Shown: positions 21,886 to 45,234, counted from the stretch's first letter. The stretch: 45,234 nt of DNA from an uncultured Thiotrichaceae bacterium (GCA_937931765.1 CALHAO010000227.1:1-45234); one strand, 5' to 3'. The notes: generated by a model not told the origin, from the sequence alone. Made by a program: numbers and translations.

Positions 21886-22122
21886 TTAGGCTGCTGCGGC
21901 TTCACTAGGAAGTGCAGCTTCCTGTTTTGCGAGTTTTCTTTTATTAAATTTTCCGCCGATTATGCGATAAGCTCCAATGCCTAGCAGGGCACCACCCGCC
22001 GTCGCCATGATTATTGGATGTGATAAAGCAAAGGCTGCACTGGTCTGTCCAACGCTAGCCAGGGAGTGGCCGACGGCAGAAAGTGTGCCACTAGAACTCG
22101 CTGCTACTGTTCCAGCTTCCAT
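21886..22122 (-). CDS. Small Ala/Gly-rich membrane protein, copy 1
   Basis: 78 aa, AGGAG RBS, HPIIMATAGGALLGIGAY plus basic tail; paralog at 42586. Confidence 0.8.
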   Translation of the reverse strand: MEAGTVAASSSGTLSAVGHSLASVGQTSAAFALSHPIIMATAGGALLGIGAYRIIGGKFNKRKLAKQEAALPSEAAAA

Positions 22123-22216
22123 AAGTTAACTCCTTTTACTAAAGATCAATAACTCCATTATTGGTACAAGGAGAAAATCAAGTCAAGGTGGTGAATAGAG
22201 ATTTTGCCTTCTGTAT

Positions 22217-22232
22217 TGTTAAGTTTTGTTAA
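22217..22232 (+). promoter_or_regulatory. Direct-repeat box TGTTAA-gttt-TGTTAA
   Basis: In a divergent promoter; conserved in the paralogous intergenic region at 42907. Confidence 0.7.
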
Positions 22233-22327
22233 GAGACCTGTGCTATTAGTGACATAGCTGGTAATACTCTTGTAAAAGTGGGCGAAGTTGAGACAAGCCC
22301 GAATCAATCAACAGATCAGAGGCAAAT

Positions 22328-22939
22328 ATGACAGAAGATATAACGGTAGAACAGCCCGGAGTACGCAATATTGATCCGGAAGTTGCCATAGCAGCGATTA
22401 GTAGTGAGGCGCACGACCTTGCCGCGAATAATATCGTTAAAAATCATATTATTGCCAGTATCGCTATGGGGCTGGTGCCGGTGCCACTGTTTGATTTGGC
22501 GGCTCTGGTGACAACGCAGATGAATATGTTGCGCAGTCTGAGCGATCACTACGGTTTACCTGGGAGTGATACAGATACCAAAACTCTGATTACATCACTG
22601 ATTAGCGGTTCTCTGCCGGTACTGGGCGTTGTTGGATTAAGCAGCTTTGCTAAACTGATTCCAGGTATTGGTTCGTTAGTGGGCAGTGCAAGTTTAAGCA
22701 TCAGTGCGGGTGCGGTGACTTATGCGGTGGGGCAAACCTTTATTATGCACTTTGAAGCAGGGGGCACGGTAGACGATTTTGAGCCAAAACAGGCTCAGGT
22801 ATTTTTCAAACGCGAGTTTGATAAAGGCAAGCAGTTCGTACGCGATATTCGCGATGAAATTCGCTCTCCTATGGAAGATGAGGCAGAGGAAACAGCGGCG
22901 AATAGCGAAAATCAGACAGCAGACAGCAGACAGTCATGA
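22328..22939 (+). CDS. DUF697/YcjF-like protein
   Basis: IVKNH..GLVPVPLFD..Q..KLIPGIG..TYAVG..HFEAGG. Confidence 0.85.
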   Translation: MTEDITVEQPGVRNIDPEVAIAAISSEAHDLAANNIVKNHIIASIAMGLVPVPLFDLAALVTTQMNMLRSLSDHYGLPGSDTDTKTLITSLISGSLPVLGVVGLSSFAKLIPGIGSLVGSASLSISAGAVTYAVGQTFIMHFEAGGTVDDFEPKQAQVFFKREFDKGKQFVRDIRDEIRSPMEDEAEETAANSENQTADSRQS

Positions 22940-23026
22940 AGTGGTAGGCGATGCTGATAATACTGAAGAAAAAAAGCCGGTGTGAGTGAGGGGTTGCCTA
23001 AAAACCGATGAGTAAAACACCCTTGA

Positions 23027-23365
23027 ATGACCCAAATGATGACTCAGGCAGTTACTGTCTGTGCTGCTACGTTATTGGCGGAAAATGCTTTGCTGGTAGC
23101 GCAGGCAAATAGCGTGCGACTTAAACAGGAAAAGAAAAAGCTACTGTGTGAACATGCCGATGACATCATTAAGTAAAATGTTATCCGTTCTATGATTTTA
23201 GGGCTTATACCGGTTCCGACACTTGATATCCTCGCCCTGACCCATGCGCAATTCAAAATGACGGATGATTTACTCAAATTGTATGGTATCGCACACAGTA
23301 AGATCGGGTGCTCAGGTGACCTGCTGCATAACTCAATTATAGATCTAGCTCCGGGTGTTGATTAA
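23027..23365 (+). pseudogene. DUF697 pseudogene (paralog of 43638)
   Basis: ADDIIK*NVIRSMILGLIPVPTLDILALTHAQFKMTDDLLKLYG; TAA at 23174-23176; similarity stops at about 23308. Confidence 0.85.
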
Positions 23366-23489
23366 ATTTCAAATAACCACATAGAAAATAATAAAATTAA
23401 ATAATTTTAATCAAAAAAACTACATATCTGACGTGCATATGGCATACTTTTTTAATGAGTGGTTTTTTTAAGTAATAACTCTGGCTTAA

Positions 23490-23505
23490 TGTCAAGAAAT
23501 GTTAC
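23490..23505 (+). promoter_or_regulatory. Direct-repeat box TGTCAA-gaaa-TGTTAC
   Basis: 70 bp upstream of the likely ATG at 23576. Confidence 0.6.
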
Positions 23506-23575
23506 ATGTACTTTATTAATACACACAAAAAGTGTAATAATTAAACAATTTGAAACGTTTCACCGGAAGAAAGCT

Positions 23576-24451
23576 ATGTCAGAAAGAAAAGTTAGTGCTG
23601 CTGATAAATCAACAAAACCTTCTCCTCCCCGACGTAAAAAACCAACACTATCTCAACAAGTGAAAGATCAAGCTACGGTTATTGCCGAATTGACGGCTGA
23701 ACTTAATAAGAAAAAAAATGAATTATTAATATTGAACAAACAGACCCACTTGATCGACCAATTGAATCATAAACTGCAGCTCGCCGAGCATGCGATGAAG
23801 GAAGATCGTACACAATCCTCAGTTCATGACAAGGTAATTACAGAACTTCAGGAACAACTTGTGGAAAAAGAGCAGCAAGTAACAACAGTTGGGGAACAAA
23901 CTGCATTGATTGATGAACTAACGGAAAAGCTTCAGGAAGTAGAAATTAAGCTACTTGCAACACATCTACAAAATAAGCATGTGGTTGCCCAAAACACTGT
24001 GAAAACTCATATGTTGGCAGGCATGGCGCTTGGCGTGCTTCCGGCCCCCCTATTTGATATAGCGGCATTGACAGGAACTCAGCTGAATTTGTTACGTAGC
24101 CTTAGCCGACATTATGGTGTTGATTTCGATGAAAAGACCGGCAATACAATCTTAACATCTCTGGTGAGTGGTTCCTTACCCGTATTGACGGTATTAGGTT
24201 TAAGCAGTTTTGCCAAGATTATCCCTGGCATTGGCACTATTGGGGGGAGTATTGGTGTAACTACTCTGGCAGGTTGCATAATCTATGCGACTGGTCAAGT
24301 GTTCATTCGACATTTTGAAACAGGTGGTACGTTCGAAGACTTCAATAGTAAACATTGGAAAAGCTTTTTTAAGGAGCAGCTTCAGGAAGGCAAAAAGAAC
24401 CTTCACATAAAAAAAGACGTTAACAATACAAAAATTACAGATCTAGCTTAA
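23576..24451 (+). CDS. Coiled-coil plus DUF697 protein
   Basis: Internally repeated coiled coil (QATVIAELTAEL / QTHLIDQLNHKL / QTALIDELTEKL), then GVLPAPLFD..KIIPGIG..HFETGG; start reassigned to MSERK. Confidence 0.82.
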   Translation: MSERKVSAADKSTKPSPPRRKKPTLSQQVKDQATVIAELTAELNKKKNELLILNKQTHLIDQLNHKLQLAEHAMKEDRTQSSVHDKVITELQEQLVEKEQQVTTVGEQTALIDELTEKLQEVEIKLLATHLQNKHVVAQNTVKTHMLAGMALGVLPAPLFDIAALTGTQLNLLRSLSRHYGVDFDEKTGNTILTSLVSGSLPVLTVLGLSSFAKIIPGIGTIGGSIGVTTLAGCIIYATGQVFIRHFETGGTFEDFNSKHWKSFFKEQLQEGKKNLHIKKDVNNTKITDLA

Positions 24452-24464
24452 AAGGTAAGCAATT

Positions 24465-25244
24465 ATGAGCATTATAACGGATAATTTGTTTCCGGCTCGA
24501 CCATTTTTTATTGAATTTTCTGATACTTACCTTCATGGGGACGTATTGCATAAATTTAGTGCGGAGGAAGATCCTCCATCAATATTGTTCCTACACGGTG
24601 ACTCACCGTCAGATAATCGCAGTGAACTTCTTGTGCTTCGCCAACTGCTGCTGCATTACTATAATGTAACCTCTTGTGCTTTTGATTTTCTGGGACACGG
24701 ATGTAGCAGTGGTAGTGGAAAGCAGAAGTCTTTGCAGCAGCGGGCGGAGCAAGCTACAGATGTCATTGATTCTTGCTTTGATTCTCAACCATTCAGTATT
24801 GTTGCCGCAGAGTCCGGCATTTATACCGCCTTGAAATTACTTGAGACAGCGCCTGTAGAAAATTTAGTTTTAATTGCGCCAACGATTCACAACCCTGAAA
24901 CCCATGCACTCAATTTGGGGGAAATATTTGGAGAACAACAGCTCTGTGCTTCACAAAGCCCTGAGAACTCTGATGTGTTCTACAAGGCACTCCAGAATTT
25001 TCAAGGAGAAATATGCATGATTGCGGCGAGCCAAAATGAGGTTATTTCATTAGAACTAACTAAGGTATCAGACTGGGCTAATGTATTTTCCCAAGAGTGC
25101 CATATTCCTGATAGCTCTCGTCCATTAATGGATTTTGATAATACTAAAGCAAATATTTTGATTAACATTGCTAGCATTATCAAAAATTTCGCTACGGAAC
25201 GTTCTTTTATCGAAGATGATTTGCCAAAGAGCAAATGCGCATGA
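24465..25244 (+). CDS. Alpha/beta-hydrolase-fold protein with degenerate nucleophile elbow
   Basis: ILFLHG, AFDFLGHG, LVLIAP; IVAAESG in place of GxSxG. Confidence 0.7.
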   Translation: MSIITDNLFPARPFFIEFSDTYLHGDVLHKFSAEEDPPSILFLHGDSPSDNRSELLVLRQLLLHYYNVTSCAFDFLGHGCSSGSGKQKSLQQRAEQATDVIDSCFDSQPFSIVAAESGIYTALKLLETAPVENLVLIAPTIHNPETHALNLGEIFGEQQLCASQSPENSDVFYKALQNFQGEICMIAASQNEVISLELTKVSDWANVFSQECHIPDSSRPLMDFDNTKANILINIASIIKNFATERSFIEDDLPKSKCA

Positions 25245-25686: not shown

Positions 25687-26412
25687 ATGTCACAGTTGGG
25701 TAGAACATTCGGTAGTTCTGAAAAAAAGCGATTATTAGTGATTGAAGACAACGATTCACTATGTAACTCTTTGAAAGAGAGTTTACAGTCTAGTGGTCAT
25801 GATGTTGAGTTACTATTTAATGGTGTAGACATCCCCAGAAAAATGGAACGCAGCAGCTTTCATCTTGTTGTTTTAAGTCTCGAACTACCAGATAAAAATA
25901 GTTTATATTGGATTAAGTGGCTTAAAAGTTACTACCCATGTATACCTGTCATTATTACTTCTAAAAATATAACGCCCGAGAGTCGATTGCAGAATCTTGA
26001 GTCGGGTGCACGTGACTATATTATCAAGCCTTTTTTAAACGAAGAACTACTAATTAAAATTAAGTTTTTTCTTGGGGGAAACACCTATAATACACAACAG
26101 CAATCCATTATAGAGATAGGGGATTTTTCTCTGGATATAGCTAATAAGCAGATAATTAAACATGATGAAATTATTCCACTCACACAGCTGGAATGTAAAA
26201 TCCTTCAGTTATTACACATGAATGTCGGCATACCGCTTGACAGAGAAGATTTAATGTGGCAAACAATGGGGGTACGCTATGTCCATTCGAACCGCAGTAT
26301 TGATACTCATATCAACCGACTCAGGAAAAAAATAGAAGATGTACCTTCTAAACCTATCTACATCCGTACTTTGAGGGGGCGGGGTTATTGTTTTCATTTA
26401 CCTGAGCGCTGA
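25687..26412 (+). CDS. Orphan atypical OmpR/PhoB-family response regulator
   Basis: VIED, DYIIKPF, winged helix RSIDTHINRLRKKIE..IRTLRGRGY; the phosphoacceptor position reads LVVLSLELP. Confidence 0.88.
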   Translation: MSQLGRTFGSSEKKRLLVIEDNDSLCNSLKESLQSSGHDVELLFNGVDIPRKMERSSFHLVVLSLELPDKNSLYWIKWLKSYYPCIPVIITSKNITPESRLQNLESGARDYIIKPFLNEELLIKIKFFLGGNTYNTQQQSIIEIGDFSLDIANKQIIKHDEIIPLTQLECKILQLLHMNVGIPLDREDLMWQTMGVRYVHSNRSIDTHINRLRKKIEDVPSKPIYIRTLRGRGYCFHLPER

Positions 26413-26587: not shown

Positions 26588-26857
26588 ATGATGTTCCCAT
26601 TTAATTTTGTTGTTGGTGCTGCAGTAGGTGCCGCTGCTACCTATATTTATAAAGATGAACCCGCTAAGAAACGCTTGGGAGAAACAGGCACAAAGCTAAA
26701 AGAGGGTGTTAGTTCTTTTATGGCTTCCTTCCGAAAAAAGCCAGAGCCTGAAATTGAGGGTATGGCTGAAGGTGTTGTCGAAGTTGTTTCTGAAGAAGTG
26801 GATGCTGAAACCATTGTTGCGAATGTTGAAGATTCAAAACAAAGTAACCCAACCTAA
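26588..26857 (+). CDS. Small YtxH-like GxxxG membrane-anchored protein with acidic tail
   Basis: AAGGAG RBS; FVVGAAVGAAATYIYKD, basic middle, Glu/Val-rich C-terminus. Confidence 0.72.
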   Translation: MMFPFNFVVGAAVGAAATYIYKDEPAKKRLGETGTKLKEGVSSFMASFRKKPEPEIEGMAEGVVEVVSEEVDAETIVANVEDSKQSNPT

Positions 26858-26865
26858 TTTATCAA

Positions 26866-26974: not shown

Positions 26975-29074
26975 TTACTCTGCCAATGCGATATTCTTAT
27001 TGGCTAAGCCCTCCCTAAAAATTTCCTGAAAATCCCCGCGTTGCTGCTGGCTATCAAAATTATCTAAACTGCCGCCTTTTTCATAATGATTCATTAATAC
27101 TTTACCAGTTGCATAGGTAACTGACCCGGCCAGCACTGACAAACTGGCACCACCACCTAAGGTACCAATGCCGGGAATAAGCTTGCTAATGCTACTCAAC
27201 CCCATGATAGCTGTCGCGGGTAATGAGCCGCCTAACATCGCAGCAATTACTGCTTTTCCACGCTTCCTATCAAAATCCACACCGTAGTGCTCACTGAGAC
27301 TTTGCAATAGGCTAAGTTGCGTCCCTGTTAATGTGGCAACATCTAAGAATGGAATTGGAATAGCACTCATTGTCATAGCGGCAGCAACATGTTTCCTGAG
27401 TAGCTTTTGGGCCTGCTGATATTTTGTTTTGGGATCAGCTCCGGTTTCCTGTGCAATTTCAGCGTTTAATACCGTTTCTTTTTTATCCTGAGTTGCGTTT
27501 ACTGCTTCCTCTGATTGGGGAGGTTCCTCTACTGTTCGTGCTTCAGGTAAAACGTTCTTGGCAGTGTCGCAGGGCAATACATCACTTAATTCAGATTCGT
27601 TAGTTACGCTACCAGTTAACGCAGAATTATTGCTGATTTTAGATTCGGTCATTACCTTGGTAGTAACCGCTTCCCCAAGGGTTGCCTCAGGCTCCTTCTC
27701 AGTAGCAAACGTAATACCTTCATCTTTATTTGCTCCCTGCAAAACCATTTCTCTTTCCTGCAAACGTTTGAGAATATGGTCGGTATGCACCCGTAAAGTA
27801 TAAAACTCTGACATGTATGACAATGGCACTGATACTTCTTGGGCCAGTTCACTATGTAGTTTTTTTGTATCGATGATCGCTTGCTTGATAGTCGTCAACG
27901 TATATTGATCTAGCTCACGGTCAACCCTATTAAGGTTTTTATACCAACGAAAAGTGCGTGAGCGGATACGCCAAGCGTAAAGTGGCATAAAGCCCTTAAC
28001 TAAAGGGAACAGTAACGTCAACAGCGGGATCAGCAGAATTTTAAATTGATCTATGCGTGCAGCTATTGAGAATGGTAAATATTTTTCCAGAAAAGAAGGC
28101 CCATTTTCCAAATATTGCTCAGCATCCGGGTGAATTGGAATTTCCAGGTGGTGGCGGGATGGAAATTGCCAGGCTTTCTCTAATAGTCCGGGTTTATGGT
28201 GGATATTCAGGGCCGCACGAGCCAATAATCGTACATGATCTGCATGTATATTTTCCCCAACGACCAAAGCAGCCGTTGCGGTCAGTAACGTTTTGTCTTG
28301 GCCAGGAATATTTTCTTGCAAATTGAGTGTTCCCCGGCTCAAATTCAGGCGGTTTAGAAAAGGGTAGTGCCTGATATATGCATCTGCATGACGCTCAAAA
28401 TTCATGATTTTGAGCGTTTTGTCACTGCTTAATATTTTTATGCTTTCAGATTCAGGTGCAGCGACGAAAAAAGCTACGTCAATTTCACCAGCTTGGATTT
28501 TTCTGACGGCTTCTTCACTATCGAGACTGAGTAAACTCGTATTACTCTGATTGAGGCCATTATCGTTCAGTAGGCGTTTGACTAACGCATTTGTACCGCT
28601 ACCTTCAGCACCAATGGCTAATTTTTTGCCTTCGAGTTGCTTAAGGTAACAAAGGTTTTTATGGTAGCTTGCTTTAGTGGTGAAAACCCACAGGGGTTCG
28701 TAAAACAGGCTAGCGACAGAATGTAAGCCCATATCAGGTGAAACTTCTGCACCAATTCCACCTTGAATAAAAGCCAAGTCAACTTTATTATCCAACAACA
28801 GCTGTAATGATTCGACTGAGCCAGCAGTGCTTTGTAGCTCTAGCTCAATACCCGCTGTTTGCAATGCTTGTTGATATTTTTGTGCGTACTGATAATAAGC
28901 CCCGCCTTCGCTACCTGCTGCAATACGCAGTTGATTAGCAGCCGATGGGGGGACAAACAACCAGGCAATGTAGAAACCTGCAGCGAGAATAAAAATCAGG
29001 GGCAAGCAGATTTTGCAGAAATCACACTTCAGTTTCATCTTGGGCTTATGGGTTTGTGTAGGACGTAAACACAT
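26975..29074 (-). CDS. TAXI-family TRAP solute-binding/membrane protein fused to a C-terminal DUF697
   Basis: IAAGSEGGAYY, STAGSVE, FIQGG, FYEPLW, GAEGSGT, GPSFLEKYLPF, VPLSYMSEFY; acidic linker; AIPIPFLD..KLIPGIG..HYEKGG. The start may be 29038. Confidence 0.85.
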   Translation of the reverse strand: MCLRPTQTHKPKMKLKCDFCKICLPLIFILAAGFYIAWLFVPPSAANQLRIAAGSEGGAYYQYAQKYQQALQTAGIELELQSTAGSVESLQLLLDNKVDLAFIQGGIGAEVSPDMGLHSVASLFYEPLWVFTTKASYHKNLCYLKQLEGKKLAIGAEGSGTNALVKRLLNDNGLNQSNTSLLSLDSEEAVRKIQAGEIDVAFFVAAPESESIKILSSDKTLKIMNFERHADAYIRHYPFLNRLNLSRGTLNLQENIPGQDKTLLTATAALVVGENIHADHVRLLARAALNIHHKPGLLEKAWQFPSRHHLEIPIHPDAEQYLENGPSFLEKYLPFSIAARIDQFKILLIPLLTLLFPLVKGFMPLYAWRIRSRTFRWYKNLNRVDRELDQYTLTTIKQAIIDTKKLHSELAQEVSVPLSYMSEFYTLRVHTDHILKRLQEREMVLQGANKDEGITFATEKEPEATLGEAVTTKVMTESKISNNSALTGSVTNESELSDVLPCDTAKNVLPEARTVEEPPQSEEAVNATQDKKETVLNAEIAQETGADPKTKYQQAQKLLRKHVAAAMTMSAIPIPFLDVATLTGTQLSLLQSLSEHYGVDFDRKRGKAVIAAMLGGSLPATAIMGLSSISKLIPGIGTLGGGASLSVLAGSVTYATGKVLMNHYEKGGSLDNFDSQQQRGDFQEIFREGLANKNIALAE

Positions 29075-29998: not shown

Positions 29999-30480
29999 TT
30001 ATTTTTCACTGTGGTCTCTTTCTTTAGCTTTGGCTAATTGTTCTGCAAAGTGCTCTTTAGCCTCTTCAGGGTTAAAGTTTTCCAGCGTCCCGCCCATTCT
30101 CAAAGTGTTGTAGAAAAATCTTGCCCACTGCGTAAGTGGAAGCACTGCTCAATGCTGCGACACTGGCACCACCCGCTACAGTCCCTATGCCCGGAATGAG
30201 TTTAAACATGCTGCCAACCAATGGGGTCGCTGTGGTTAAGGTAACACCGCTAGTTAATGTTGACAGAGAGATACTCGCCAGATTCTTCTTAAAAGGTACA
30301 CCATAGAGTCTTGATAAGCGGAGTAACATTAGCCGCTGCACACCTACTAAACCGATAACATCTGCTACAGGAATTGGGATCAGTCCGGTTAAGCTGGAAC
30401 GAAAAGCATAATCTTTGATGATTTTATTGGCTTGCTGGGTACGATCTTCAGCTACTCTTTGAGGAATGGGGGTTATTCAT
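29999..30480 (-). pseudogene. DUF697 gene with two +1 homopolymer frameshifts
   Basis: Removing one base at 30468-30472 and one at 30093-30095 gives MNNPIPQRVAEDRTQQANKIIKDY..GLIPIPVAD..KLIPGIG..HFENGGTLENFNPEEAKEHF..* (159 aa). Confidence 0.8.
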
Positions 30481-36912: not shown

Positions 36913-38813
36913 TCTGCGTATTTCTGTGTTTGTTTTTTTCTGCGGAACATAAGTAGAAATAGCATAATATGTGCCATCACTACGCTGTAGGTTATCGCTA
37001 TGGCGATACCCTTCATTTGGGTTACCATTTGTAGTAAATCGGGTGCACTAAATGTGTTTTCTGTACCAAATAATGCGACACTCACTGCCCCCCAGATACT
37101 GGCAAAGCCATGAATAGCAATCAGTTGTGCCACGATAACCTGTCCGTCCTTCCTTAAAAAAGTTTTACGCAATAAACTAAATGCCAGATTCTGCACTAAC
37201 CCTGCTACAGCACCTATCACCAGTGCTTCAACAAAGGTTACGCTTTGCGCGCAGGCAGCAATCGCCACCAATCCACTGATAAAACCACCATATAGCATTT
37301 GGGAGACATGATTTTTGTCAGTATTAAAAAAGTTACAATGCATAAACGCTATCAGGCTGCCCATGATGCCAGCTAAACTGACATTCAATAAAACAGTTGG
37401 CACCTGTTCATCAGTGATAGAGAGGTTGCCTGCTGAAAACCCCAGCCAGCTCATCCATAATAATAAAATAATAGGTGATGAATACAGCGAATATTTTAAC
37501 GGTTGTTCAGACGGTTGCGAAGGTGATGAACGTTCAAGCTTCAGCATCATTGTAAGGGCAAACCATGCGGCTACAGCGTGGATAATGATAGAGCCGGATT
37601 GATCAATAAAACCGATACCATCCAGCCATCCTTTGTTAGTAGGGACAAAGTGACTGGCCCAACCCCAATGTCCAAAGATTGGCATGATAACGGCACCAAT
37701 AGCAAAAGCCAAAAATAAATGCGCTAAACTAGATAGATATTTTGAAATAGCAGTATAAATAATCAAAGCTGCAAACATAATAAAACCACTTTTATACAGC
37801 AGCAGCTTAATGAAAGGTATATTAGCCATTATGTTTTCTGCGGTTTCTTTTTCCTGGTCGGGGTGAGTTATGGTCGCTTGCACGATCAGATAGCTTTCAC
37901 TACCCACTAAGCCTGCATAGGTTGTGCCATACGTTAGGCTAAAACCTATGGCGAAGTAGCCAAGAAATGAACCCATACAAACTAATAAGATCTCTTGATT
38001 TTGTTTTATATTGCTATTGGAGAAAGTATTATTATTAAAGTTATTGGAAAGGGCAAAAGCTAATGGAGCAAGAAACACCAGCACAGTAGCCAATAAGCGC
38101 CATAGTCGATTCAGATTTTCAGCAGTGATTGTTTCAATGCTCTGGCTTTTATCAGCATTCTGACTATCTTTTAATTCTCCAGAAAATCGTTTTACACTTT
38201 CCCTTATGCTACTAATGCGAATCAAAATTTCATAAAGACGAATTGAGTTATCTTCAATCAATGATTTTTGTGTATCCAAATCTGTTGCATTAGCACGAAT
38301 ATCACGGGTAGATTCAAGTAACTCTTCGTGAACTTTCTCAATATTGCTGGAATTAACATTGATGCTACTGCGACTTTCATCTAATCCGTTATAGGCGTTT
38401 TTTAACTTGTTTTCGATTAGTTCCAGTCCATCACGCACAGCTTGCATGCTACTATGATTGATGCTGGATTTTTCTTTACTGCTATCGATTTCTTTACTCA
38501 ACGATTCCAGGGTTTGTTGAATGATATCGAGGTCAGCAATACTGTTTTTGATTTCTGATTCAGCTTGTTGTTGCGGTGATAATTCCTCATCTTTATTAGA
38601 TGAAGTATTGGTTCCTTGCCCTGAATTTTCCCTGGTATTTCCCTGTGGTTCAGAAGTGGTTAGATTATCGTTCCCTGTTACTGGAGTAATTCCCTGTTCT
38701 GCTAAACTTGGGTTTGCAAGTATTAACAATAACACCAACAAAGATAGTCTGCTATTAGTGAATAAAGAGCTGAGTCCAAACGATGTTAACTTGAAACGTG
38801 GAAGAATCATCAT
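36909..38813 (-). CDS. Ammonium transporter (Amt)-like protein with N-terminal signal and long coiled coil
   Basis: GHWGW, GWLDGIGFIDQSGSIIIH, LLWMSWLGF, GFISGLVAIAA, IAIHG..IWG. Confidence 0.8.
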   Translation of the reverse strand: MMILPRFKLTSFGLSSLFTNSRLSLLVLLLILANPSLAEQGITPVTGNDNLTTSEPQGNTRENSGQGTNTSSNKDEELSPQQQAESEIKNSIADLDIIQQTLESLSKEIDSSKEKSSINHSSMQAVRDGLELIENKLKNAYNGLDESRSSINVNSSNIEKVHEELLESTRDIRANATDLDTQKSLIEDNSIRLYEILIRISSIRESVKRFSGELKDSQNADKSQSIETITAENLNRLWRLLATVLVFLAPLAFALSNNFNNNTFSNSNIKQNQEILLVCMGSFLGYFAIGFSLTYGTTYAGLVGSESYLIVQATITHPDQEKETAENIMANIPFIKLLLYKSGFIMFAALIIYTAISKYLSSLAHLFLAFAIGAVIMPIFGHWGWASHFVPTNKGWLDGIGFIDQSGSIIIHAVAAWFALTMMLKLERSSPSQPSEQPLKYSLYSSPIILLLWMSWLGFSAGNLSITDEQVPTVLLNVSLAGIMGSLIAFMHCNFFNTDKNHVSQMLYGGFISGLVAIAACAQSVTFVEALVIGAVAGLVQNLAFSLLRKTFLRKDGQVIVAQLIAIHGFASIWGAVSVALFGTENTFSAPDLLQMVTQMKGIAIAITYSVVMAHIMLFLLMFRRKKQTQKYAE

Positions 38814-38843: not shown

Positions 38844-39674
38844 TCATGGCTTTTCTTGCTTGGTTTGTAGCTTTTGGCCTTTACTGATTTTTTCACCCAA
38901 AGCTGCCAATGTGGTTGTACAGCTTGGTGTCTCTCCACTTGTGGCAATAGCTTTCTCCAGTTTATCCAGTAATTCACCATTGTTTCTGTGAACAGCCAAT
39001 GTCATTAATGGAGATATTTCTGCTTTTTCTACCTTAAAAGCAGTTAAACCTTCTTTGTCTAATTTTACATCTGTTACTCTAGCCTGAAAAAATGCACGAT
39101 CTGTCAACAAAGCATCAACACGTTGGCTGAGCAAATCGACAATGCCACTCTCCAAAACCAGATAAGGTTTTAGGCGGTTATTGCTGTCGTATTCCTCCAA
39201 TAGATGCAGATGTAATAAAGAGCCTTCCAGTGCCCCCAGTGTATTGCCCCGGAAGTCTTCAGGGGTGGTTTGTGGGTTATCAGTTTCACGCTGTATAAAA
39301 ACAATTTCTGGCAGGCATAAAGGTTTAGTGAGGCTTAGCTGATCAATCTCGGGTAGAACCAAAGAATCGATAATGGCCAAACCATTGATTTGTAAGGTCT
39401 GTACTTGATGTAATAATTGATCGAAGTCAGCAGTAACAAAATTACATTCTGCATCAATTTGTTGGCATAGCCGCGTAATACTTTCAACCATGACGCCCTG
39501 AGGCTGCTGTTCCTGGTCAAAAAAACTATAGGGCATGCGATTATCCTGAATTCCGATAAAAAGCTGTGTGTCGACAGGTGTTTTTTCCAAATTTTCCTGG
39601 GCATGACCTGAAAAGCTGAGCAACAAGCACCCAGAAATCACTATTAAATAAATACAGTGTTGCAGAAAACTCAC
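38844..39674 (-). CDS. Family 3 (polar amino acid) solute-binding protein
   Basis: Signal peptide, MPYSFFD, LCQQIDAECNFV, LGALEGS, DLLSQRVDALL. Confidence 0.78.
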   Translation of the reverse strand: MSFLQHCIYLIVISGCLLLSFSGHAQENLEKTPVDTQLFIGIQDNRMPYSFFDQEQQPQGVMVESITRLCQQIDAECNFVTADFDQLLHQVQTLQINGLAIIDSLVLPEIDQLSLTKPLCLPEIVFIQRETDNPQTTPEDFRGNTLGALEGSLLHLHLLEEYDSNNRLKPYLVLESGIVDLLSQRVDALLTDRAFFQARVTDVKLDKEGLTAFKVEKAEISPLMTLAVHRNNGELLDKLEKAIATSGETPSCTTTLAALGEKISKGQKLQTKQEKP

Positions 39675-41491
39675 AGCTGGGAGTCCTTTACATAATAATG
39701 ATCCGGGGACAATAGTAAAATGGGGTTATCAGGTAGACCTTGTGCCTGCAGATTTTGCAGGTTGACGCTAATTTCCGGAAGGTTTTTTAGGCGTGTTGCA
39801 AACTCATGTACTTTAAGGTTTTCGAGTAAGTCTCTATAAACCTGCATTTCCCCCATGCCGCGTAAACTAATATCAGAGCGTTTTTCCAGGATAATGCTAA
39901 GATTTTGATCGTTATTACGGTTCTCTAATGCAATAGCAGGTATTTTAAAAAACGCCAAACTTTCATTCAATTTAGATATTATCTTAGCATCAAGGCCGTG
40001 AAAAGGATGAGTAAATAATACATCAACATTCAATGAGAGTTTGCCATAACAAGATATTATTTCCCGAATAGCTTCTTCTGGTTCTAAAATCGATAAAGGA
40101 ACTCTGCATTCAACTACTTCAATTTTTTTCTTTTTTGCCACTTCTTGCAATAAATCATAGCTGGCAATAGTTCGCCCATTTTTAGTGTTTTCGTAAATAA
40201 TACCGATACGCTTAAAGCGTAGGATTTCATGAGCCAGATCTAACGAAAGAGTTTTATGATCATCATCATGCATTTTCTTGGCAAATTCTTTACTAAAATT
40301 GGTTGCTGAACTCGGTAATTGAGCTTGAAAGCGCTCTAACGTATAGGGAATATCGATAGCTGGCATAGAGTGCCAAGTACCATTCTGCCACACTTTGAAA
40401 TAATATTTTTTACCTAACATATCACCCGCTTTGGTAAACGCATGTATTCCAGTTATGCCGACCCAAGCTGGCATAAAATGTAGGTTTGATGATAGGAGTG
40501 ATGGTAGTGTGGAGCCAGCATTTTCAATAGCTGTTGCCAGGAGCATAAGGGAGTCGTACCCCTGTGCTGCATTGTAATCAGGCAACACACTATATTTTAA
40601 GCTATAACTTTCAATAAATTTTTTTCTACGCGGATTAGAGCCTTTCACAGGGAATACATCAGGCAGAATAGTGTTTTCTGCACTACCTCCTGCAATTTTC
40701 AAGTAGTTAGCAGAGTTTAACTGATCACTACCGAGTATTGGTTGATCAACACCCATCTCACGTAATTGTCGCACCATTCTTCCGGCGGGAACTGGAGGAG
40801 CGGCAATGAATATTGCATCAAAGGTACTATTATTAAACTCTGCAATAACGGGTCGATAGTTTTGTGAGCGTGAAAAAAAAGATTTACGGTTAATGACTTC
40901 AATATTTTCACTTAACGCAGCGTCTTCAGCCATAAATGCCTGCTCCCGGCTAAAATCATCACGGGTATACAAGATGACTATCTTGCGATACTCTAATGTT
41001 CTAGCCATGCTTGCTATTTGCTCCATCATTGTAGTGTTACCGGGAATCATTCGGTAGACATATTGAAAATAATAATTTGTCAATTTTTCACTGGTAGCAA
41101 ATGGTGTCATGAAAATAAGATGGCTGCGCTCATAAATCACTGACGCAGGAATAGCAACTTCTGAACTACGATGTCCTAGTACAGCAACCATTTTTGGGTT
41201 ATTAGCAATTCTCCGGATAGTCGATTTAGTGGATTGAAAGTCAGGCCCATCCTGCTCAATATGAATTTGTAAATTACGTCCCAGTAGCTTGTTAGGACGT
41301 TGGTTAATTTCTTCAGCGGCCAATAAAACGCCTTCGAGAAAAGCACTTTTATTAAGATCCTGAAGCGCTGTAATATGAATATCACCATGATTTTGGCGGG
41401 CTTGTGCCAGCCGTTTTTCTGCCATACCCTCATAATCAGGCGCGCATCCGCTCAACAAGAATATGACCATAATGAACAGTCGCAGCAGCAT
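39671..41491 (-). CDS. LivJ/K-like branched-chain amino acid binding lipoprotein with extra C-terminal domain
   Basis: Lipobox LSGC, LAAEEIN, AVLGHRSS, ILGSD, AAQGYDS, GITG. Confidence 0.8.
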   Translation of the reverse strand: MLLRLFIMVIFLLSGCAPDYEGMAEKRLAQARQNHGDIHITALQDLNKSAFLEGVLLAAEEINQRPNKLLGRNLQIHIEQDGPDFQSTKSTIRRIANNPKMVAVLGHRSSEVAIPASVIYERSHLIFMTPFATSEKLTNYYFQYVYRMIPGNTTMMEQIASMARTLEYRKIVILYTRDDFSREQAFMAEDAALSENIEVINRKSFFSRSQNYRPVIAEFNNSTFDAIFIAAPPVPAGRMVRQLREMGVDQPILGSDQLNSANYLKIAGGSAENTILPDVFPVKGSNPRRKKFIESYSLKYSVLPDYNAAQGYDSLMLLATAIENAGSTLPSLLSSNLHFMPAWVGITGIHAFTKAGDMLGKKYYFKVWQNGTWHSMPAIDIPYTLERFQAQLPSSATNFSKEFAKKMHDDDHKTLSLDLAHEILRFKRIGIIYENTKNGRTIASYDLLQEVAKKKKIEVVECRVPLSILEPEEAIREIISCYGKLSLNVDVLFTHPFHGLDAKIISKLNESLAFFKIPAIALENRNNDQNLSIILEKRSDISLRGMGEMQVYRDLLENLKVHEFATRLKNLPEISVNLQNLQAQGLPDNPILLLSPDHYYVKDSQL

Positions 41492-42474
41492 CAGGGATCT
41501 TTCCTTGCAGGTTGGGAGAGTGGCTGTTGGGTGTTATCTCCCGCTGTGTTTGATTCACTACTACCTGCGCCATCTTCATTAACTGGCTCTTGATTAGTAG
41601 TAGGCACTACTGGCTCATGGTCGGTGTTTAAAATAATGGGTAGTCCATTCTTACCACCACCAATAATAACAATTTTTGTATTCGGTGATTTTGCCAGTTC
41701 TTGTGTCGCTTCGATGCCTTTATGAGTCAGAATTGATTCTGTCAGGGACTCGTCAACGATTTGGTGATATTCCTTGATGCCTCCTGCTTCTACTTTTAAA
41801 CGCTCTGCCTCTTTCTGAGCTGTTTGTAGACGGAATTCATATGACTTCATGAACTCTTCTTGTCGTAATTTATCTTCAATAGCTATAACAAGTTCTTTTG
41901 GCAAAGTAATACTACGGATAATTATATCTTCTACTTCTACATAATTCCGGCCAACTTCTTCCAATGCAGCCAGAATAGCACTAGTCAATAATCCAGATTC
42001 GTTCGTATATATTTGTTCAGCAGTATAGCTTCCTAGCTCTTTACGCATTACTGATTCAATTTGAGGTAAAATCACACGTGTTAAATAATCAGGGCCAATG
42101 CTTTGGTGAAGTATCCCTAACAATTCATATTCTGGGCGATAACGAATAGCTAGTGACAAATGAACACTAAGGCCTTTATTGGAAATGACATCAAATTCGT
42201 GATAAGCAACCTGTTTGCGTATTTCGTAGATATAAACCTTATCCAAAGGACTAAATATATGAAGACCTTCTTCATATATCCGGTCAATTTCAGTGCCACT
42301 AAACCGTTTAAACAGAATAGCTGCTTGTCCAGACTCAATCGTTATAACAATACGCTGCCAAAAGAATACAAATATTATGGCAGAAATTAATGATAATATG
42401 ATCAGTAAGGGCGATTTTCGGCGTAACCATTGCTTTAATCTTTCACTTAAACTGGGGCTTTCAGTTGCTTCCAC
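41491..42474 (-). CDS. SPFH/prohibitin (band 7) protein
   Basis: N-terminal TM, EEGLH, IRYRP, IGPDY, YTAEQIY, AIEDK, EAERLKVEAGG. Confidence 0.88.
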   Translation of the reverse strand: MEATESPSLSERLKQWLRRKSPLLIILSLISAIIFVFFWQRIVITIESGQAAILFKRFSGTEIDRIYEEGLHIFSPLDKVYIYEIRKQVAYHEFDVISNKGLSVHLSLAIRYRPEYELLGILHQSIGPDYLTRVILPQIESVMRKELGSYTAEQIYTNESGLLTSAILAALEEVGRNYVEVEDIIIRSITLPKELVIAIEDKLRQEEFMKSYEFRLQTAQKEAERLKVEAGGIKEYHQIVDESLTESILTHKGIEATQELAKSPNTKIVIIGGGKNGLPIILNTDHEPVVPTTNQEPVNEDGAGSSESNTAGDNTQQPLSQPARKDP

Positions 42475-42528: not shown

Positions 42529-42561
42529 AAAAAAACCGCCTGAGCTTCGCCACAAGCGGTT
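42529..42561 (-). terminator. Probable intrinsic terminator after the small membrane protein gene
   Basis: aaccgc...gcggtt stem followed by a T run on the minus strand. Confidence 0.55.
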
Positions 42562-42585
42562 AAATTTACTGGATAACCAGGGGAT

Positions 42586-42810
42586 TCAGGCAGCAACAGC
42601 TTCTTCGACAGCCGGTGCATTTTTCTTTCTGAATATTTTGTTTGCAGTCAAATAAACTCCAACACCTAGGAGAGCGCCTCCAGCTACCGCCATGCCCATA
42701 GGATGCGCCAAAACAAAAGCTTTAGTGGCTGTGCCTACGTTAGCGAGAGAGCTGCCGACAGAAGACAAAGAACCATTTGAAGTTGCTGCAGTGACTACTT
42801 CCGTTTCCAT
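42586..42810 (-). CDS. Small Ala/Gly-rich membrane protein, copy 2
   Basis: 74 aa, AGGAG RBS, HPMGMAVAGGALLGVGVY plus basic tail. Confidence 0.8.
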   Translation of the reverse strand: METEVVTAATSNGSLSSVGSSLANVGTATKAFVLAHPMGMAVAGGALLGVGVYLTANKIFRKKNAPAVEEAVAA

Positions 42811-42906
42811 GAATTACTCCTTTTAACACTATTAATTAGTAGCTTATATTATCAGGTGATGTTGAAAATCAAGTCAAGAATATTGCGGCTGAATTGGCAT
42901 CATTAC

Positions 42907-42922
42907 TGTCAATTTTTGTCAA
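42907..42922 (+). promoter_or_regulatory. Direct-repeat box TGTCAA-tttt-TGTCAA
   Basis: In a divergent promoter; positional homolog of the 22217 box. Confidence 0.7.
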
Positions 42923-43020
42923 GACAGCTATGAAAAACCATAGATAGCAGGTAAAAATCCTAAGAAGGTGTGTTAAATTAGAATTTTAGTGATTTTTCAG
43001 TCTCTACAAGGTGGTATTAA

Positions 43021-43614
43021 ATGACAGAAGTAACAGTGGAAAAAGCAGCTTTTCGATATGCTGACCCTAGTGTCGACCTGGTATCAGTGAGTAGTGAGAT
43101 CCAAGATGTTACTGCGAATAATATTGTTAAAAATCATATTATTGCCAGCATAGCCTTAGGCTTGGTTCCCGTGCCATTATTTGATTTGGCTGCTTTAGTG
43201 ACTACACAAATGAATCTGATCGGTAGTTTAAGAGAACATTACGGTTTGCCTGCTGATGATACTGATACTAAAATGCTGGTTACCTCTTTGATCAGTGGCT
43301 CTTTACCTGTGTTGGGTGTTGTAGGGCTAAGTAGTTTTGCCAAACTGATTCCAGGCATTGGTTCATTAGTAGGTAGTGCTAGCTTAAGCATCAGTGCTGG
43401 AGCTGTCACTTATGCAGTTGGTCAAACATTCATCATGCATTTCGAAGCCGGAGGTTCCTTAGATGATTTTGAACCTAAACAAGCACAAGACTTTTTTAAA
43501 CGTGAATTCGATAAGGGGAAGCAGTTCGTTAAAAATATTCGTGATGAATTTAATCCGCCGATAATAGAAGAACAAGAACAAGAACAAGAACAGCCTACTG
43601 CAGATAAGCGCTGA
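43021..43614 (+). CDS. DUF697/YcjF-like protein
   Basis: Core nearly identical in protein to 22328..22939. Confidence 0.85.
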   Translation: MTEVTVEKAAFRYADPSVDLVSVSSEIQDVTANNIVKNHIIASIALGLVPVPLFDLAALVTTQMNLIGSLREHYGLPADDTDTKMLVTSLISGSLPVLGVVGLSSFAKLIPGIGSLVGSASLSISAGAVTYAVGQTFIMHFEAGGSLDDFEPKQAQDFFKREFDKGKQFVKNIRDEFNPPIIEEQEQEQEQPTADKR

Positions 43615-43637
43615 GTAGCATGTAAATTTTTATCATC

Positions 43638-44213
43638 ATGAATAATTACAAAACTGCTGATCAGCTCTTATCTGAAGATGCTATTTTATCGAAGCAAGCA
43701 GACATAGCTCTTTTGAAAATTAAGAAGTTAAAGCTTCGTGAAGAAAAAGCTAACGATATTATAAAAAGAAATGTTATCCAAGCCATGACAGCAGGATTGA
43801 TTCCTATTCCTGCATTAGATTTGATGACTTTGACACATGTCACTTTCAAAATGACTGATGATCTGCTTAAGTTATATAATGTTCATCATGATAAAATTGG
43901 AATATCTGTTATCAGGTCAGTAGTTATAGGTGCCCTGCCTGTTGTAACAATAACTGGGCTAGGGAGCATGGTAAAATTTATGCCAGGTATAGGCTCACTT
44001 ATAGGAAGTACTAGTGTTGCAATTAGTGCTGGGGGACTAACTTATGCTTTAGGTAAAACACTATCTGAGCACTTTTCAAAAGGTGGGTTATTGAATGAAT
44101 TCAGCATTAAAGATATCGTACCTCAATTTAAATCCGAGTTCAAAGAGGGTATAAAGTTAGCTAAATCATTAGATAAAAAAGAACTAGAAGCTCAAGAATT
44201 AATTAAATTATGA
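43638..44213 (+). CDS. DUF697/YcjF-like protein
   Basis: GLIPIPALD..KFMPGIG..TYALG..HFSKGG. Confidence 0.83.
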   Translation: MNNYKTADQLLSEDAILSKQADIALLKIKKLKLREEKANDIIKRNVIQAMTAGLIPIPALDLMTLTHVTFKMTDDLLKLYNVHHDKIGISVIRSVVIGALPVVTITGLGSMVKFMPGIGSLIGSTSVAISAGGLTYALGKTLSEHFSKGGLLNEFSIKDIVPQFKSEFKEGIKLAKSLDKKELEAQELIKL

Positions 44214-45234
44214 TTTATAAAAATATTGCTTTTATGCTTATATTTATACTTTCTCAGGAAATTTTTGCTTCAACAGAAGAAAAAGTTATTGTTTATAATT
44301 GGCCAGATTATATTCCTGAAAATGTATTAGATAATTTCACCAAAGAAACAGGCATCAAAGTCGAGTACTCAACATATAAAAATAATCATGTTATGTATAC
44401 TCGGCTTAAACTACTTAACGGGCGTGGTTATGATGTTGTAGTACCATCTACTGATCTGGTAGGGAAAATGCGCGCAGAAGGCTTAATACAACCCTTACAT
44501 TATGAGTGGTTGGAAAATATACAAAAACTTGACCCTTTGTTGATGAATAAAAGTTACGACCCCGAAAATAAATTTAGCCTTCCCTATCTCTGGGGCTCAA
44601 CAGGAATTGTTGTTGATACCGAAAAATTTGATAGTGAAAAAATAACAAGTTGGGCTGACTTATGGCAAAGGCAATTGCCAGATGAGCTAGTTATAATAGA
44701 TGATTTCAGGGAAGTTTTTCATGCAGCATTGAAGTTGAATAAATATTCCAACAATACTACTGATTCTGATGAGATAAGGCAATCGTATACAGACTTAAAA
44801 AAAATAATGCCAAGAATCAAAGGAATTACCAGCGACCCACTTGAGGGCCTTGAATCTGGTGAGATTCAACTTGGAATTACTTGGAATGGTGATGTAGCAA
44901 TTGCACAAAAAAACAGACCTTCATTGAAATATATTTATCCTGAAGAAGGGGCTAGTTTTTGGATTGATAGTTTTGTGATTCCCTCCCGCTCCAGTAATGT
45001 CAAAAATGCTCATAAATTTATTGACTATATGCTTAGGCCGGATGTTGCAGCACTTTGTGTAGAAGAGTTGGGTTATGCAACTCCTGTGCTTGAAGCAAAA
45101 AAGATGCTGAGTCAGGAAATTGTTAATAACCCAATAATTTTTCCACCAGAAGAAATAATGGAGAAAGCAGAATTCCAGGTTAATCTGGATTTTGAAACAT
45201 TAAAACTTTATAGAATATTGTGGGATAAACTGAA
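44210..45234 (+). CDS. potD: Polyamine ABC solute-binding protein, PotD/PotF family (runs off window; absent from ORF track)
   Basis: ATGA overlap with the DUF697 stop; MIYKNIAFMLIFILSQEIFA..YNWPDYIP..FTKETGIKVEYSTY..YDVVVPS..PYLWGSTG..DDFRE..WNGD..FWIDS. Confidence 0.85.
   Translation, partial: MIYKNIAFMLIFILSQEIFASTEEKVIVYNWPDYIPENVLDNFTKETGIKVEYSTYKNNHVMYTRLKLLNGRGYDVVVPSTDLVGKMRAEGLIQPLHYEWLENIQKLDPLLMNKSYDPENKFSLPYLWGSTGIVVDTEKFDSEKITSWADLWQRQLPDELVIIDDFREVFHAALKLNKYSNNTTDSDEIRQSYTDLKKIMPRIKGITSDPLEGLESGEIQLGITWNGDVAIAQKNRPSLKYIYPEEGASFWIDSFVIPSRSSNVKNAHKFIDYMLRPDVAALCVEELGYATPVLEAKKMLSQEIVNNPIIFPPEEIMEKAEFQVNLDFETLKLYRILWDKL

What the first reader, a model, noticed from the sequence alone, without database searches (positions are those of the whole stretch)
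21886..45234. Candidate new membrane system: seven DUF697 domains, ligand-less P1B-ATPases, small Gly-rich membrane proteins and SPFH
Seen: seven DUF697-type domains in about 22 kb (22328, 23027 pseudo, 23576, C-terminus of 26975, 29999 frameshifted, 43021, 43638), all sharing an I/V/L-P-x-P-x-x-D motif and, where not truncated, K-x-x-PGIG and H-F/Y-x-x-GG. They are interleaved with three small GxxxG-type proteins, one full and one truncated P1B-like ATPase, an SPFH scaffold and several orphan binding proteins. Known: ferrosome (fez) clusters combine a P1B-6 ATPase with small hydrophobic GxxxG proteins to build a lipid-bounded organelle, and SPFH proteins organise membrane microdomains. Inference: this is an analogous but distinct membrane compartment or microdomain, with DUF697 as a reusable targeting or oligomerisation module. 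I know of no described function for such a DUF697 array.
Basis: partly seen in the sequence, partly recalled or inferred. Interest (0 to 1): 0.88.

Follow-up and report, generated by a model that had tools for sequence, protein, structure and literature searches.

The report
Membrane kit for natural-product gene clusters
The seven DUF697 genes belong to a gene set that is either present or absent as a whole in related sulfur bacteria and travels with peptide and polyketide gene clusters, including the one for the drug didemnin; it likely builds a membrane patch for handling their products rather than an iron-storage organelle, and it includes P-type pumps that have lost their metal-binding residues and a conserved half-pump.

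Summary
There are seven DUF697 domains (two broken), three GxxxG proteins, an SPFH protein, and a full and a half P1B-like ATPase. The ferrosome reading does not hold.

The host is a Thiotrichaceae genome. In 107 family genomes this DUF697 clade (20) nests the half-ATPase (18 of 18), the SPFH clade (17 of 17), a PvdE/SyrD-type exporter (18 of 19) and the ATPase clade (17 of 19). The set surrounds or abuts NRPS/PKS genes. In a 400-genome phylum sample, 11 of 15 SPFH-clade genomes have DUF697 nearby and 10 of 15 an NRPS/PKS/adenylation gene. The triad flanks the didemnin cluster.

The ATPases keep their catalytic motifs (27 of 27) but lack FezB and CPC-type ligands (0 of 27). The 'truncated' ATPase is a conserved TGE-less family, not a pseudogene.

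Best reading (inferred, 0.5): an SPFH/DUF697-organised membrane platform serving specialised-metabolite pathways. Against it: this 82%-complete genome showed no cassette-type megasynthase, and no binding or localisation was shown.

This scan found the SPFH–exporter–DUF697 core earlier on other DNA. One word search of its findings returned none for the ATPase layer.

The parts
7101..20265 (.). GC-rich tailoring cluster: SDR, SnoaL, amidohydrolase, ATPase, methyltransferase, P450, amidinotransferase, FMO, 2OG/Fe oxygenase, aldo-keto reductase; likely cargo pathway (inferred)
   Evidence: Pfam; amidinotransferase by PDB search; GC 50-60% vs about 40% for the cassette
9877..12099 (-). Second ligand-less P1B-like ATPase, inside the tailoring operon
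21326..21778 (+). DDE_3 (IS630-type) transposase fragment at the left edge of the duplicated block
21886..22122 (-). Small-A GxxxG membrane protein, duplicate copy
   Evidence: no Pfam family
22328..22939 (+). DUF697 class a, duplicate of 43021 (76% DNA identity over 462 bp)
23027..23365 (+). DUF697 class b pseudogene (in-frame stop, truncated)
   Evidence: stop shared by two other studies' contigs
23576..24451 (+). DUF697 class c with a long N-terminal helical extension (coiled-coil-like by eye); ORF open from GTG 23459
24465..25244 (+). Alpha/beta-hydrolase-like protein, conserved behind class c in relatives
   Evidence: weak NCBIfam hits; orthologues
25687..26412 (+). OmpR-type response regulator, conserved in the cassette
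26591..26857 (+). Small-B protein: N-terminal GxxxG segment plus Glu/Ala-rich tail (PacL-like layout, no DUF1490 hit)
26975..29074 (-). TAXI-type binding domain, transmembrane segment, linker, then DUF697 class d
   Evidence: fusion recurs
29199..29963 (+). Conserved half-ATPase: N-terminal helix, four helices, actuator domain without TGE; no P or N domain (ORF open from 29151)
29999..30482 (-). DUF697 class e, frameshifted near 30093 (polymorphic) and lacking an in-frame start
30473..31165 (-). Sfp/HetI-type 4'-phosphopantetheinyl transferase
31447..33087 (-). Cyclic-peptide export ABC transporter (TIGR01194, above cut-off)
33421..35412 (-). Core ligand-less P1B-like ATPase (TM4 NFSDIVRITIP; TGE, DKTGT, HP, GDGIND intact)
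35545..36912 (-). C45-family protein lacking the nucleophile Cys (absent in 11 of 12 rows), membrane-anchored at both ends
   Evidence: Cys role recalled
36909..38813 (-). Amt-like membrane protein with long N-terminal extension; first pore His lost in 9 of 12 rows
   Evidence: His-pair role recalled
38844..39674 (-). Family-3 solute-binding protein, no permease in the window
39671..41491 (-). Peripla_BP_6 binding protein, translationally coupled to SPFH; near SPFH in 12 of 15 phylum-sample genomes
41491..42474 (-). SPFH/prohibitin-family protein, marker of the system
42586..42810 (-). Small-A GxxxG protein, divergent from DUF697 class a
43021..43614 (+). DUF697 class a; predicted five-helix fold with a low-confidence Gly-rich hairpin
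43638..44213 (+). DUF697 class b, tandem with class a in several relatives
44210..45234 (+). PotD-like binding protein, cut by the contig end; conserved in the cassette

Best explanation
This is the membrane-accessory gene set of specialised-metabolite (NRPS, PKS and tailoring) clusters, and it likely assembles a membrane patch in which pathway products or intermediates are handled and exported.

Shown: co-inheritance, physical linkage to biosynthetic genes, DUF697 fusions to membrane proteins (including an exporter membrane domain), catalytically intact ATPases without metal ligands, and a conserved half-ATPase.

Inferred: (1) SPFH subunits would oligomerise on the outer face of the inner membrane and fence in the ABC exporter, with the coupled binding protein catching what leaves. 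(2) DUF697 domains, free or fused, would dock on the inner face through their Gly-rich hydrophobic hairpin and pair with each other, gathering their fusion partners. (3) The GxxxG proteins and the similar Gly-rich N-termini of the ATPases would cluster the pumps as PacL does for CtpC. (4) Each ATPase paralogue, encoded within its own tailoring operon and with its own TM4 sequence, would move a pathway-specific organic substrate rather than a transition metal. (5) The half-ATPase, Cys-less C45 and degenerate Amt would be non-catalytic scaffold or regulatory subunits.
For: Co-inheritance in 107 family genomes: half-ATPase 18 of 18, SPFH 17 of 17, exporter 18 of 19 and ATPase clade 17 of 19 lie inside the 20 DUF697-clade genomes. 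Condensation domains occur in 12 of 107, 9 of them in that set; both ATPase-positive genomes outside it have NRPS genes.

Physical linkage: NRPS/PKS genes lie inside or beside the cassette in G094, G101, G104 and G073. PKS genes abut it in same-genus G001 and G016.

Phylum sample: the SPFH clade is in 15 of 400 genomes. Within up to 20 kb, DUF697 is present in 11 of 15, an NRPS/PKS/adenylation gene in 10 of 15, and any thiotemplate marker in 12 of 15. The ATPase clade is in 5 of 400, all within those 15.

Plasmids: all 19 DUF697-clade records have the SPFH clade within about 4 kb. Four of five inspected loci adjoin NRPS/PKS genes, one being the didemnin cluster.

Fusions: DUF697 replaces the nucleotide-binding domain behind an exporter membrane domain in P0131 (E 3e-47), and a tandem double-DUF697 protein exists (P0042).

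ATPase motifs.
Against: The window's genome (82% complete) gave no condensation or thioesterase match. Its one detected PKS fragment is the genus-wide type also found in cassette-less genomes. 8 of 20 DUF697-clade genomes had neither domain.

A PvdE-type exporter was near SPFH in only 4 of 15 phylum loci (other ABC types in 3 more), so export is not the invariant link. One Azospirillum locus has the triad with no NRPS in 24 kb.

Of six own-genome clade ATPases, C185 and C479 have no tailoring neighbours on their short contigs.

Linked genes on one island are not independent. Five of the 15 phylum genomes are one genus, and no background rate for NRPS proximity was measured. The exporter fusion is a single cluster member. 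No expression, localisation or transport data exist.
Confidence: 0.5

Rival explanations
1. A sensing and self-protection complex. The binding proteins, degenerate Amt, Cys-less C45 and SPFH would detect the cluster's product or a related cue outside and signal through the conserved response regulator, with DUF697 as the cytoplasmic adaptor; export is incidental.
For: SPFH sits with a Peripla_BP_6 protein in 12 of 15 phylum loci, more often than with an exporter. Catalytic residues are lost in C45 and Amt. An OmpR regulator is conserved, and a 7TMR-DISM hybrid kinase lies in or next to several relatives' cassettes.
Against: It does not explain intact ATPases in tailoring operons or the exporter-DUF697 fusion. 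No kinase lies in the window. Alphaproteobacterial triads mostly lack the regulator and Amt.
Confidence: 0.2
2. A ferrosome-like or metal-supply compartment. The ATPases would still pump a metal, for example iron for the many iron oxygenases in these operons, using non-canonical ligands, into a GxxxG/DUF697-shaped vesicle.
For: TM4 keeps the FezB register and its proline (20 of 27). The nearest outside relatives are cyanobacterial ATPases beside DUF5132 and HMA2 genes. GxxxG small proteins are present as in fez clusters. Many linked operons encode TauD, 2OG/Fe, haem-oxygenase-like or P450 enzymes.
Against: 0 of 27 have D[YF]SCA, HNxxT or CPC-type motifs, and those columns are hypervariable. 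There is no HMA, FeoA or ferritin-like gene in the window and no Fur-box-like site at up to 3 mismatches (weak). The core triad occurs without any clade ATPase in most phylum loci.
Confidence: 0.13
3. DUF697 paralogues are immunity or membrane-protection proteins that bind or sequester the cell's own membrane-active products; the copy number would track the number of products, with no shared platform.
For: The fold is hydrophobic and helical with a flexible hairpin. Copies are multiplied in island-rich genomes (2-7 matches in 18 of 20 genomes). Copies decay when duplicated.
Against: Paralogue classes are shared across genera and tied to fixed neighbours such as small-A, TAXI and the hydrolase, not to particular pathways. 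Very different NRPS/PKS clusters carry a single copy.
Confidence: 0.1
4. Hitch-hiking: unrelated genes collected on a mobile island that also attracts biosynthetic clusters, with no joint function.
For: Distribution is patchy, a transposase lies at the edge, GC shifts sharply and two copies are broken.
Against: Gene order is reshuffled and the set is split over separate loci in several genomes, yet the parts remain co-present. The same triad recurs in distant proteobacteria at 30-45% identity.
Confidence: 0.07

Closest known systems
PvdE/SyrD/YojI-type cyclic-peptide ABC exporters with PPTase and type II thioesterase in NRPS/PKS clusters (TIGR01194)
   Same: 31447-33087 passes the TIGR01194 cut-off and has a PPTase beside it. 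The didemnin flank holds the same exporter type. PMC10811503 lists eight transporters and eight hypothetical proteins among 19 flanking ORFs and deleted only didJ and didK among them (sections read).
   Different: No paper found describes SPFH, DUF697, GxxxG proteins or P-type ATPases as partners. PMC12016528 notes one exporter plus prohibitin next to an NRPS/PKS and speculates on interaction (passages).
Ferrosome fez clusters (FezB, P1B-6; bioRxiv 2020.01.10.902569)
   Same: A P1B-type ATPase with a homologous TM4 register, small GxxxG proteins, and sometimes several ATPases per cluster.
   Different: The defining D[YF]SCA and HNxxT motifs are absent (0 of 27). There is no FezC-like HMA protein or iron-homeostasis context. 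It adds SPFH, DUF697, an exporter and biosynthetic genes; it forms a separate clade in a quick tree.
Mycobacterial effluxosomes (PacL/DUF1490 with CtpC/G/V; PMC13043812)
   Same: Small-B has the PacL layout: an N-terminal Gly-motif helix and a Glu/Ala-rich tail. It often lies next to an ATPase or half-ATPase. The paper shows such proteins cluster and stabilise P1B pumps in membrane patches (passages).
   Different: No DUF1490 hit. The paper finds PacL only in Actinobacteria and reports that a flotillin-like protein clusters independently of PacL. The pumps here lack metal ligands.
SPFH membrane cages and microdomains (HflK/C, flotillin, prohibitin)
   Same: Band_7 domain behind an N-terminal membrane helix. 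SPFH proteins assemble into rings or domes at membranes (search listing and abstracts only).
   Different: A distinct clade, far below HflK/HflC cut-offs, single copy, tied to biosynthetic clusters; its client is unknown.
Widespread long DUF697 proteins (GTPase-fused on enterobacterial plasmids)
   Same: Same Pfam domain and PxPxxD/PGIG motifs. A weakly matching long-ORF type is in 24 of 24 family genomes sampled; the plasmid hits are annotated GTPase.
   Different: The clade here has no GTPase, is multiplied into at least five classes, and is patchy (20 of 107).

Membership tests
Ferrosome (fez) cluster | FezB TM4 motif D[Y/F]SCA | tested here: not met
   0 of 27 full-length clade ATPases; the window has NFSDI and TYGWS
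Ferrosome (fez) cluster | FezB TM6 motif HNxxT | tested here: not met
   0 of 27
Ferrosome (fez) cluster | Small proteins with hydrophobic GxxxG | tested here: met
   three in the window
Ferrosome (fez) cluster | FezC-like HMA protein, FeoA, ferritin-like or iron-homeostasis neighbours | tested here: not met
   none among 42 window ORFs scanned; the contig ends inside the cassette, so genes beyond are unseen
Ferrosome (fez) cluster | ATPase falls within the FezB clade | tested here: inconclusive
   The quick tree separates a 31-row clade (SH-aLRT 100) from the single FezB-type row, which is a long branch; the AU test did not finish
Ferrosome (fez) cluster | Lipid-bounded iron granules | not testable with these tools
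   needs TEM/EDX
Effluxosome (PacL/Ctp) | DUF1490 domain in the small partner | tested here: not met
   0 Pfam families for 7 small proteins at E<=0.001
Effluxosome (PacL/Ctp) | Gly-motif TM helix plus Ala/Glu-rich cytoplasmic tail | tested here: met
   small-B alignment against the paper's description
Effluxosome (PacL/Ctp) | Partner pump with a canonical TM4 metal motif (CPC/APC type) | tested here: not met
   0 of 27; 8-11 residue gap against CopA at CPC
P1B-type ATPase (33421, 9877) | TIGR01525 cut-off; TGE, DKTGT, HP, GDGxND | tested here: met
   404 and 387 bits vs cut-off 346; motifs 27 of 27
P1B-type ATPase (33421, 9877) | Transition-metal transport | not testable with these tools
   needs an ATPase or transport assay
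P-type ATPase (29199 half protein) | Phosphorylation domain (DKTG) and actuator TGE | tested here: not met
   0 of 88 homologues have TGE or DKTG; lengths 222-274 aa; only lengths near the query were searched
Cyclic-peptide ABC exporter (TIGR01194) | HMM cut-off 286 | tested here: met
   316 bits
Cyclic-peptide ABC exporter (TIGR01194) | Cognate NRPS/PKS in the same cluster of this genome | tested here: inconclusive
   none found in an 82%-complete, 514-contig assembly whose contig ends in the cassette; present in relatives
DUF697 (PF05128) | Pfam gathering score 27.7 | tested here: met
   6 of 7 above cut-off; the pseudogene scores 22.5
C45 peptidase / acyltransferase | Nucleophile Cys at the autocleavage site (role recalled) | tested here: not met
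   Gly at that column in the window; Cys in 1 of 12 rows
Amt ammonium channel | Twin pore histidines (role recalled) and TIGR00836 cut-off | tested here: inconclusive
   The window keeps both His, but 9 of 12 rows lose the first; 143 bits vs cut-off 343

The most novel reading that the evidence does not exclude
Proteobacteria run a dedicated, previously undescribed membrane 'shipping dock' for natural products. An SPFH cage and a DUF697 coat enclose the exporter. In Thiotrichaceae it is joined by a FezB-related P-type ATPase lineage that has been repurposed from metals to organic metabolites, one paralogue per tailoring pathway, regulated by a conserved actuator-only half-pump.
Probability: 0.25. 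Interest if true: 0.92.

Novelty: new variant of a known kind. Interest (0 to 1): 0.7.

Why it matters
DUF697 has no function in the 7 papers listed for the term (titles and abstracts only). Here it gains a consistent context and a ready test: the triad sits 5-9 kb from didA in Tistrella mobilis, a producer with published gene-deletion tools (PMC10811503).

If the kit is needed for export, it is a missing part in heterologous production of peptide and polyketide drugs and a new marker for mining biosynthetic clusters.

For P-type ATPase biology, it offers a clade with intact catalytic motifs but no metal ligands and pathway-linked paralogues, plus a conserved actuator-only half-pump. These would be candidates for new substrates and a new mode of regulation. 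The set also flags overlooked biosynthetic islands in filamentous sulfur bacteria.

Tried and rejected
Fold search of DUF697 (model pLDDT 82): no Foldseek match at E<=0.001; best VIA-align Z 7.5, generic helical hairpins. A Z 6.6 row for the dynamin-like IniA is not distinguishable from background, so no fold was assigned.

The ESM Atlas gave no answer.

RNA: no RNA holder listed among 22 runs, so nothing on expression.

AU test on FezB placement did not finish. The careful ATPase tree did not finish, and the quick tree was used.

A homologue search with class b returned only itself. The metagenome scan with the exporter-DUF697 fusion found 2 loci matching only the DUF697 part, so no second fusion was found.

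A Fur-box consensus (recalled) had 0 matches. The promoter scan of the small-A/DUF697 gap gave 4 sites vs 1.3 expected and was not used.

Rejected: 'truncated ATPase is a pseudogene'; 'frameshift is an assembly error' (a run of the source's study carries the same allele); 'seven independent copies' (one block is a duplicate).

Literature searches with no describing paper: DUF697; band 7 + cyclic peptide + NRPS (0 papers); prohibitin + NRPS; P-type ATPase + BGC + NRPS + Thiothrix (0 papers); SPFH + NRPS + exporter; truncated or ligand-less P1B. Subscription papers are not covered. The original didemnin cluster paper was not held, and the supplements of the ferrosome preprint (its FezH motif tables) were not seen. 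They could bear on whether this ATPase clade was already listed there.

Full report
**Observation.** The window is a whole contig of an 82%-complete, 514-contig genome. Named relatives are Thiothrix and uncultured Thiotrichaceae. Pfam finds DUF697 in five intact ORFs, and the genome-wide search adds the two broken copies; 7 of the genome's 8 matches are here. The motifs hold. A tree of 43 domains sorts the seven into five classes shared across genera, and 21886-23365 is a decaying duplicate of 42586-44213 next to a transposase fragment. Contigs from four public runs cover 20500-33500 and two cover 33000-45234 with few differences. The class b stop is shared by two other studies; the 30093 frameshift is absent from 3 of 4 runs.

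The same stretch encodes an Sfp/HetI-type PPTase, a TIGR01194 cyclic-peptide exporter, a C45-like and an Amt-like protein and a response regulator. To the left, a GC-rich operon of tailoring enzymes, including an amidinotransferase, contains a second ATPase of the same clade.

**Co-inheritance in the family.** I searched all 107 Thiotrichaceae genomes offered, with E-value thresholds I chose to exclude generic paralogues. Counts: DUF697 clade 20, half-ATPase 18, SPFH 17, ATPase clade 19, exporter 19. Overlaps with the DUF697 set are 18 of 18, 17 of 17, 17 of 19 and 18 of 19. The set is patchy within genera (for example 7 of 28 in one) and its order is reshuffled or split over loci. Kin and linked genes are not independent, so the Fisher values overstate.

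**Link to biosynthetic clusters.** Condensation domains occur in 12 of 107 genomes, 9 in the DUF697 set; thioesterases in 11, 9 in the set. In G094 two DUF697 genes bracket a large NRPS, and in G101, G104 and G073 NRPS/PKS genes lie inside or beside the cassette. In same-genus G001 and G016, PKS genes abut the ATPases and cassette; five cassette-less controls of that genus had only the genus-wide PKS-size protein, ACP and, in one, an 831-aa carrier protein. Against: 8 of 20 had neither domain. The window's genome had none; its PKS fragment is the genus-wide type (68% vs 34-39%), though it has an adenylation-carrier protein beside a second PPTase.

**Outside the family.** In 400 evenly drawn Pseudomonadota genomes the SPFH clade occurs in 15. 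In up to 20 kb around it I found DUF697 in 11, a Peripla_BP_6 protein in 12, an NRPS/PKS/adenylation gene in 10, any thiotemplate marker in 12, a PvdE-type exporter in 4 and other ABC exporters in 3. Three of the four DUF697 misses are contigs under 15 kb; five genomes are one genus; no background rate was measured. The ATPase clade was found in 5 of 400, all among the 15 (only three candidates scored per genome). Among 72,556 plasmids, 19 records hold the DUF697 clade at E<=8e-14 and all 19 have the SPFH clade within about 4 kb; they come from four taxa, 15 being Azospirillum. Of five loci inspected, four adjoin NRPS/PKS genes and one does not within 24 kb. The Tistrella locus is the didemnin cluster: its 2123-aa C-A-T-C-A-T protein begins with the residues encoded by the didA sequence in the supplement of PMC10811503.

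**The ATPases.** Both full-length window proteins pass TIGR01525; the genome has six of the clade. Of 36 ATPase rows gathered, 3 fragments were dropped and 6 outside rows set aside. The 27 remaining all keep TGE, DKTGT, HP and GDGxND, and none has D[YF]SCA, HNxxT or a CPC-type motif. TM4 aligns in the FezB register but its ligand columns vary by subfamily. A quick tree gives a 31-row clade (SH-aLRT 100) apart from a FezB-type row, cyanobacterial relatives that sit beside DUF5132/HMA2 genes, and a canonical CPC pump. Paralogues repeatedly sit in small operons of oxygenases, sulfotransferases, methyltransferases and aminotransferases, though two own-genome copies do not. The half-ATPase is single-copy in 18 genomes. 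All 88 homologues collected are 222-274 aa and end after the actuator domain; none has TGE, and 86 carry a DDxxELxHY motif. It folds confidently (pLDDT 89.5) and matches P1B actuator domains.

**DUF697.** The model is five helices with a low-confidence Gly-rich hydrophobic hairpin at about residues 81-120; no solved fold matches. The profile hits 1,332 representatives at E<=1e-30. Among 20 long proteins scanned, it is C-terminal to TAXI domains in three, doubled in one, and in P0131 follows an exporter membrane domain in place of the nucleotide-binding domain (one cluster member on 7 contigs). This fits a docking module but shows no binding. Other cassette members look degenerate: C45 lacks its Cys in 11 of 12 rows and Amt its first His in 9 of 12 (residue roles recalled).

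**Mechanism.** I commit to a membrane platform for specialised-metabolite handling (0.5); its steps are inferred from SPFH cages (abstracts), PacL clustering (passages) and gene context. Rivals are a sensing complex (0.2), a metal compartment (0.13), immunity proteins (0.1) and hitch-hiking (0.07). That the set serves biosynthetic clusters in some way I put near 0.8.

**Known systems and papers seen.** It fails membership of fez clusters and effluxosomes on tested features but may work like them. Seen: the ferrosome preprint, parts 1-2 of 5; PMC10811503, parts 1-2 of 6 and supplement part 2; passages of PMC12016528, PMC5577590, PMC5061366 and PMC13043812; the rest as listings only. PMC12016528 notes one exporter-prohibitin pair beside an NRPS/PKS. 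Three earlier findings of this scan describe the SPFH-exporter-DUF697 core on other DNA; I had reached that reading before the look-up (notes). One word search for the ATPase layer returned none.

**Verdict.** Real, conserved, undescribed in the literature searched, and directly testable. The organelle claim is unproven, and the iron analogy is misleading. Interest 0.7.

Noticed in passing
window 7101-20265: Tailoring cluster with an amidinotransferase (best PDB hits inosamine-phosphate and glycine amidinotransferases, also HsvA and SxtG), FMO, P450, methyltransferase and a halogenase-like 2OG/Fe enzyme, without a megasynthase; product unknown, probably guanidino-containing. G101's island also has an amidinotransferase with a carbamoyltransferase.
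   Followed up: partly
window 3270-7094: Four-gene minus-strand block: AIR-carboxylase-like, unassigned 274 aa, nickel-insertion protein and TauE-type transporter; resembles nickel-pincer cofactor genes (label recalled).
   Followed up: no
L008:7509-9221 and L092:680-2377: Further degenerate clade ATPases of about 570 aa: one lacks TGE and GDGxND, the other lacks DKTGT; a possible second pseudo-pump class.
   Followed up: partly
L003:11168-13477, L007:14684-17005: 7TMR-DISM hybrid histidine kinases recur in or next to relatives' cassettes; no kinase is in the window for the orphan regulator at 25687.
   Followed up: no
L075, L077 (G335, G266): SPFH and DUF697 pair here with a C39-peptidase ABC transporter and a second ABC protein instead of a PvdE-type exporter, suggesting the kit also serves ribosomal peptide export.
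   Followed up: partly
L112:409-8061; G000 contig C332: A roughly 2,550-aa reducing type I PKS appears genus-wide, including in all five cassette-less controls by size of the carrier-bearing ORF.
   Followed up: partly
L123:2193-6795 (G000 contig C43): Sulfotransferase, haem-oxygenase-like enzyme and 2OG dioxygenase operon ending in a clade ATPase, elsewhere in the window's genome.
   Followed up: partly
window 18646-19395, 20278-21399, 2381-3214: Three ORFs of 249-373 aa with no Pfam family at E<=0.001.
   Followed up: no
L002:15476-17874, L036:1727-2782, L094:5987-8319: OmpA/BON proteins, in two cases with an MscS-like neighbour, recur inside relatives' islands but are absent from the window.
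   Followed up: no
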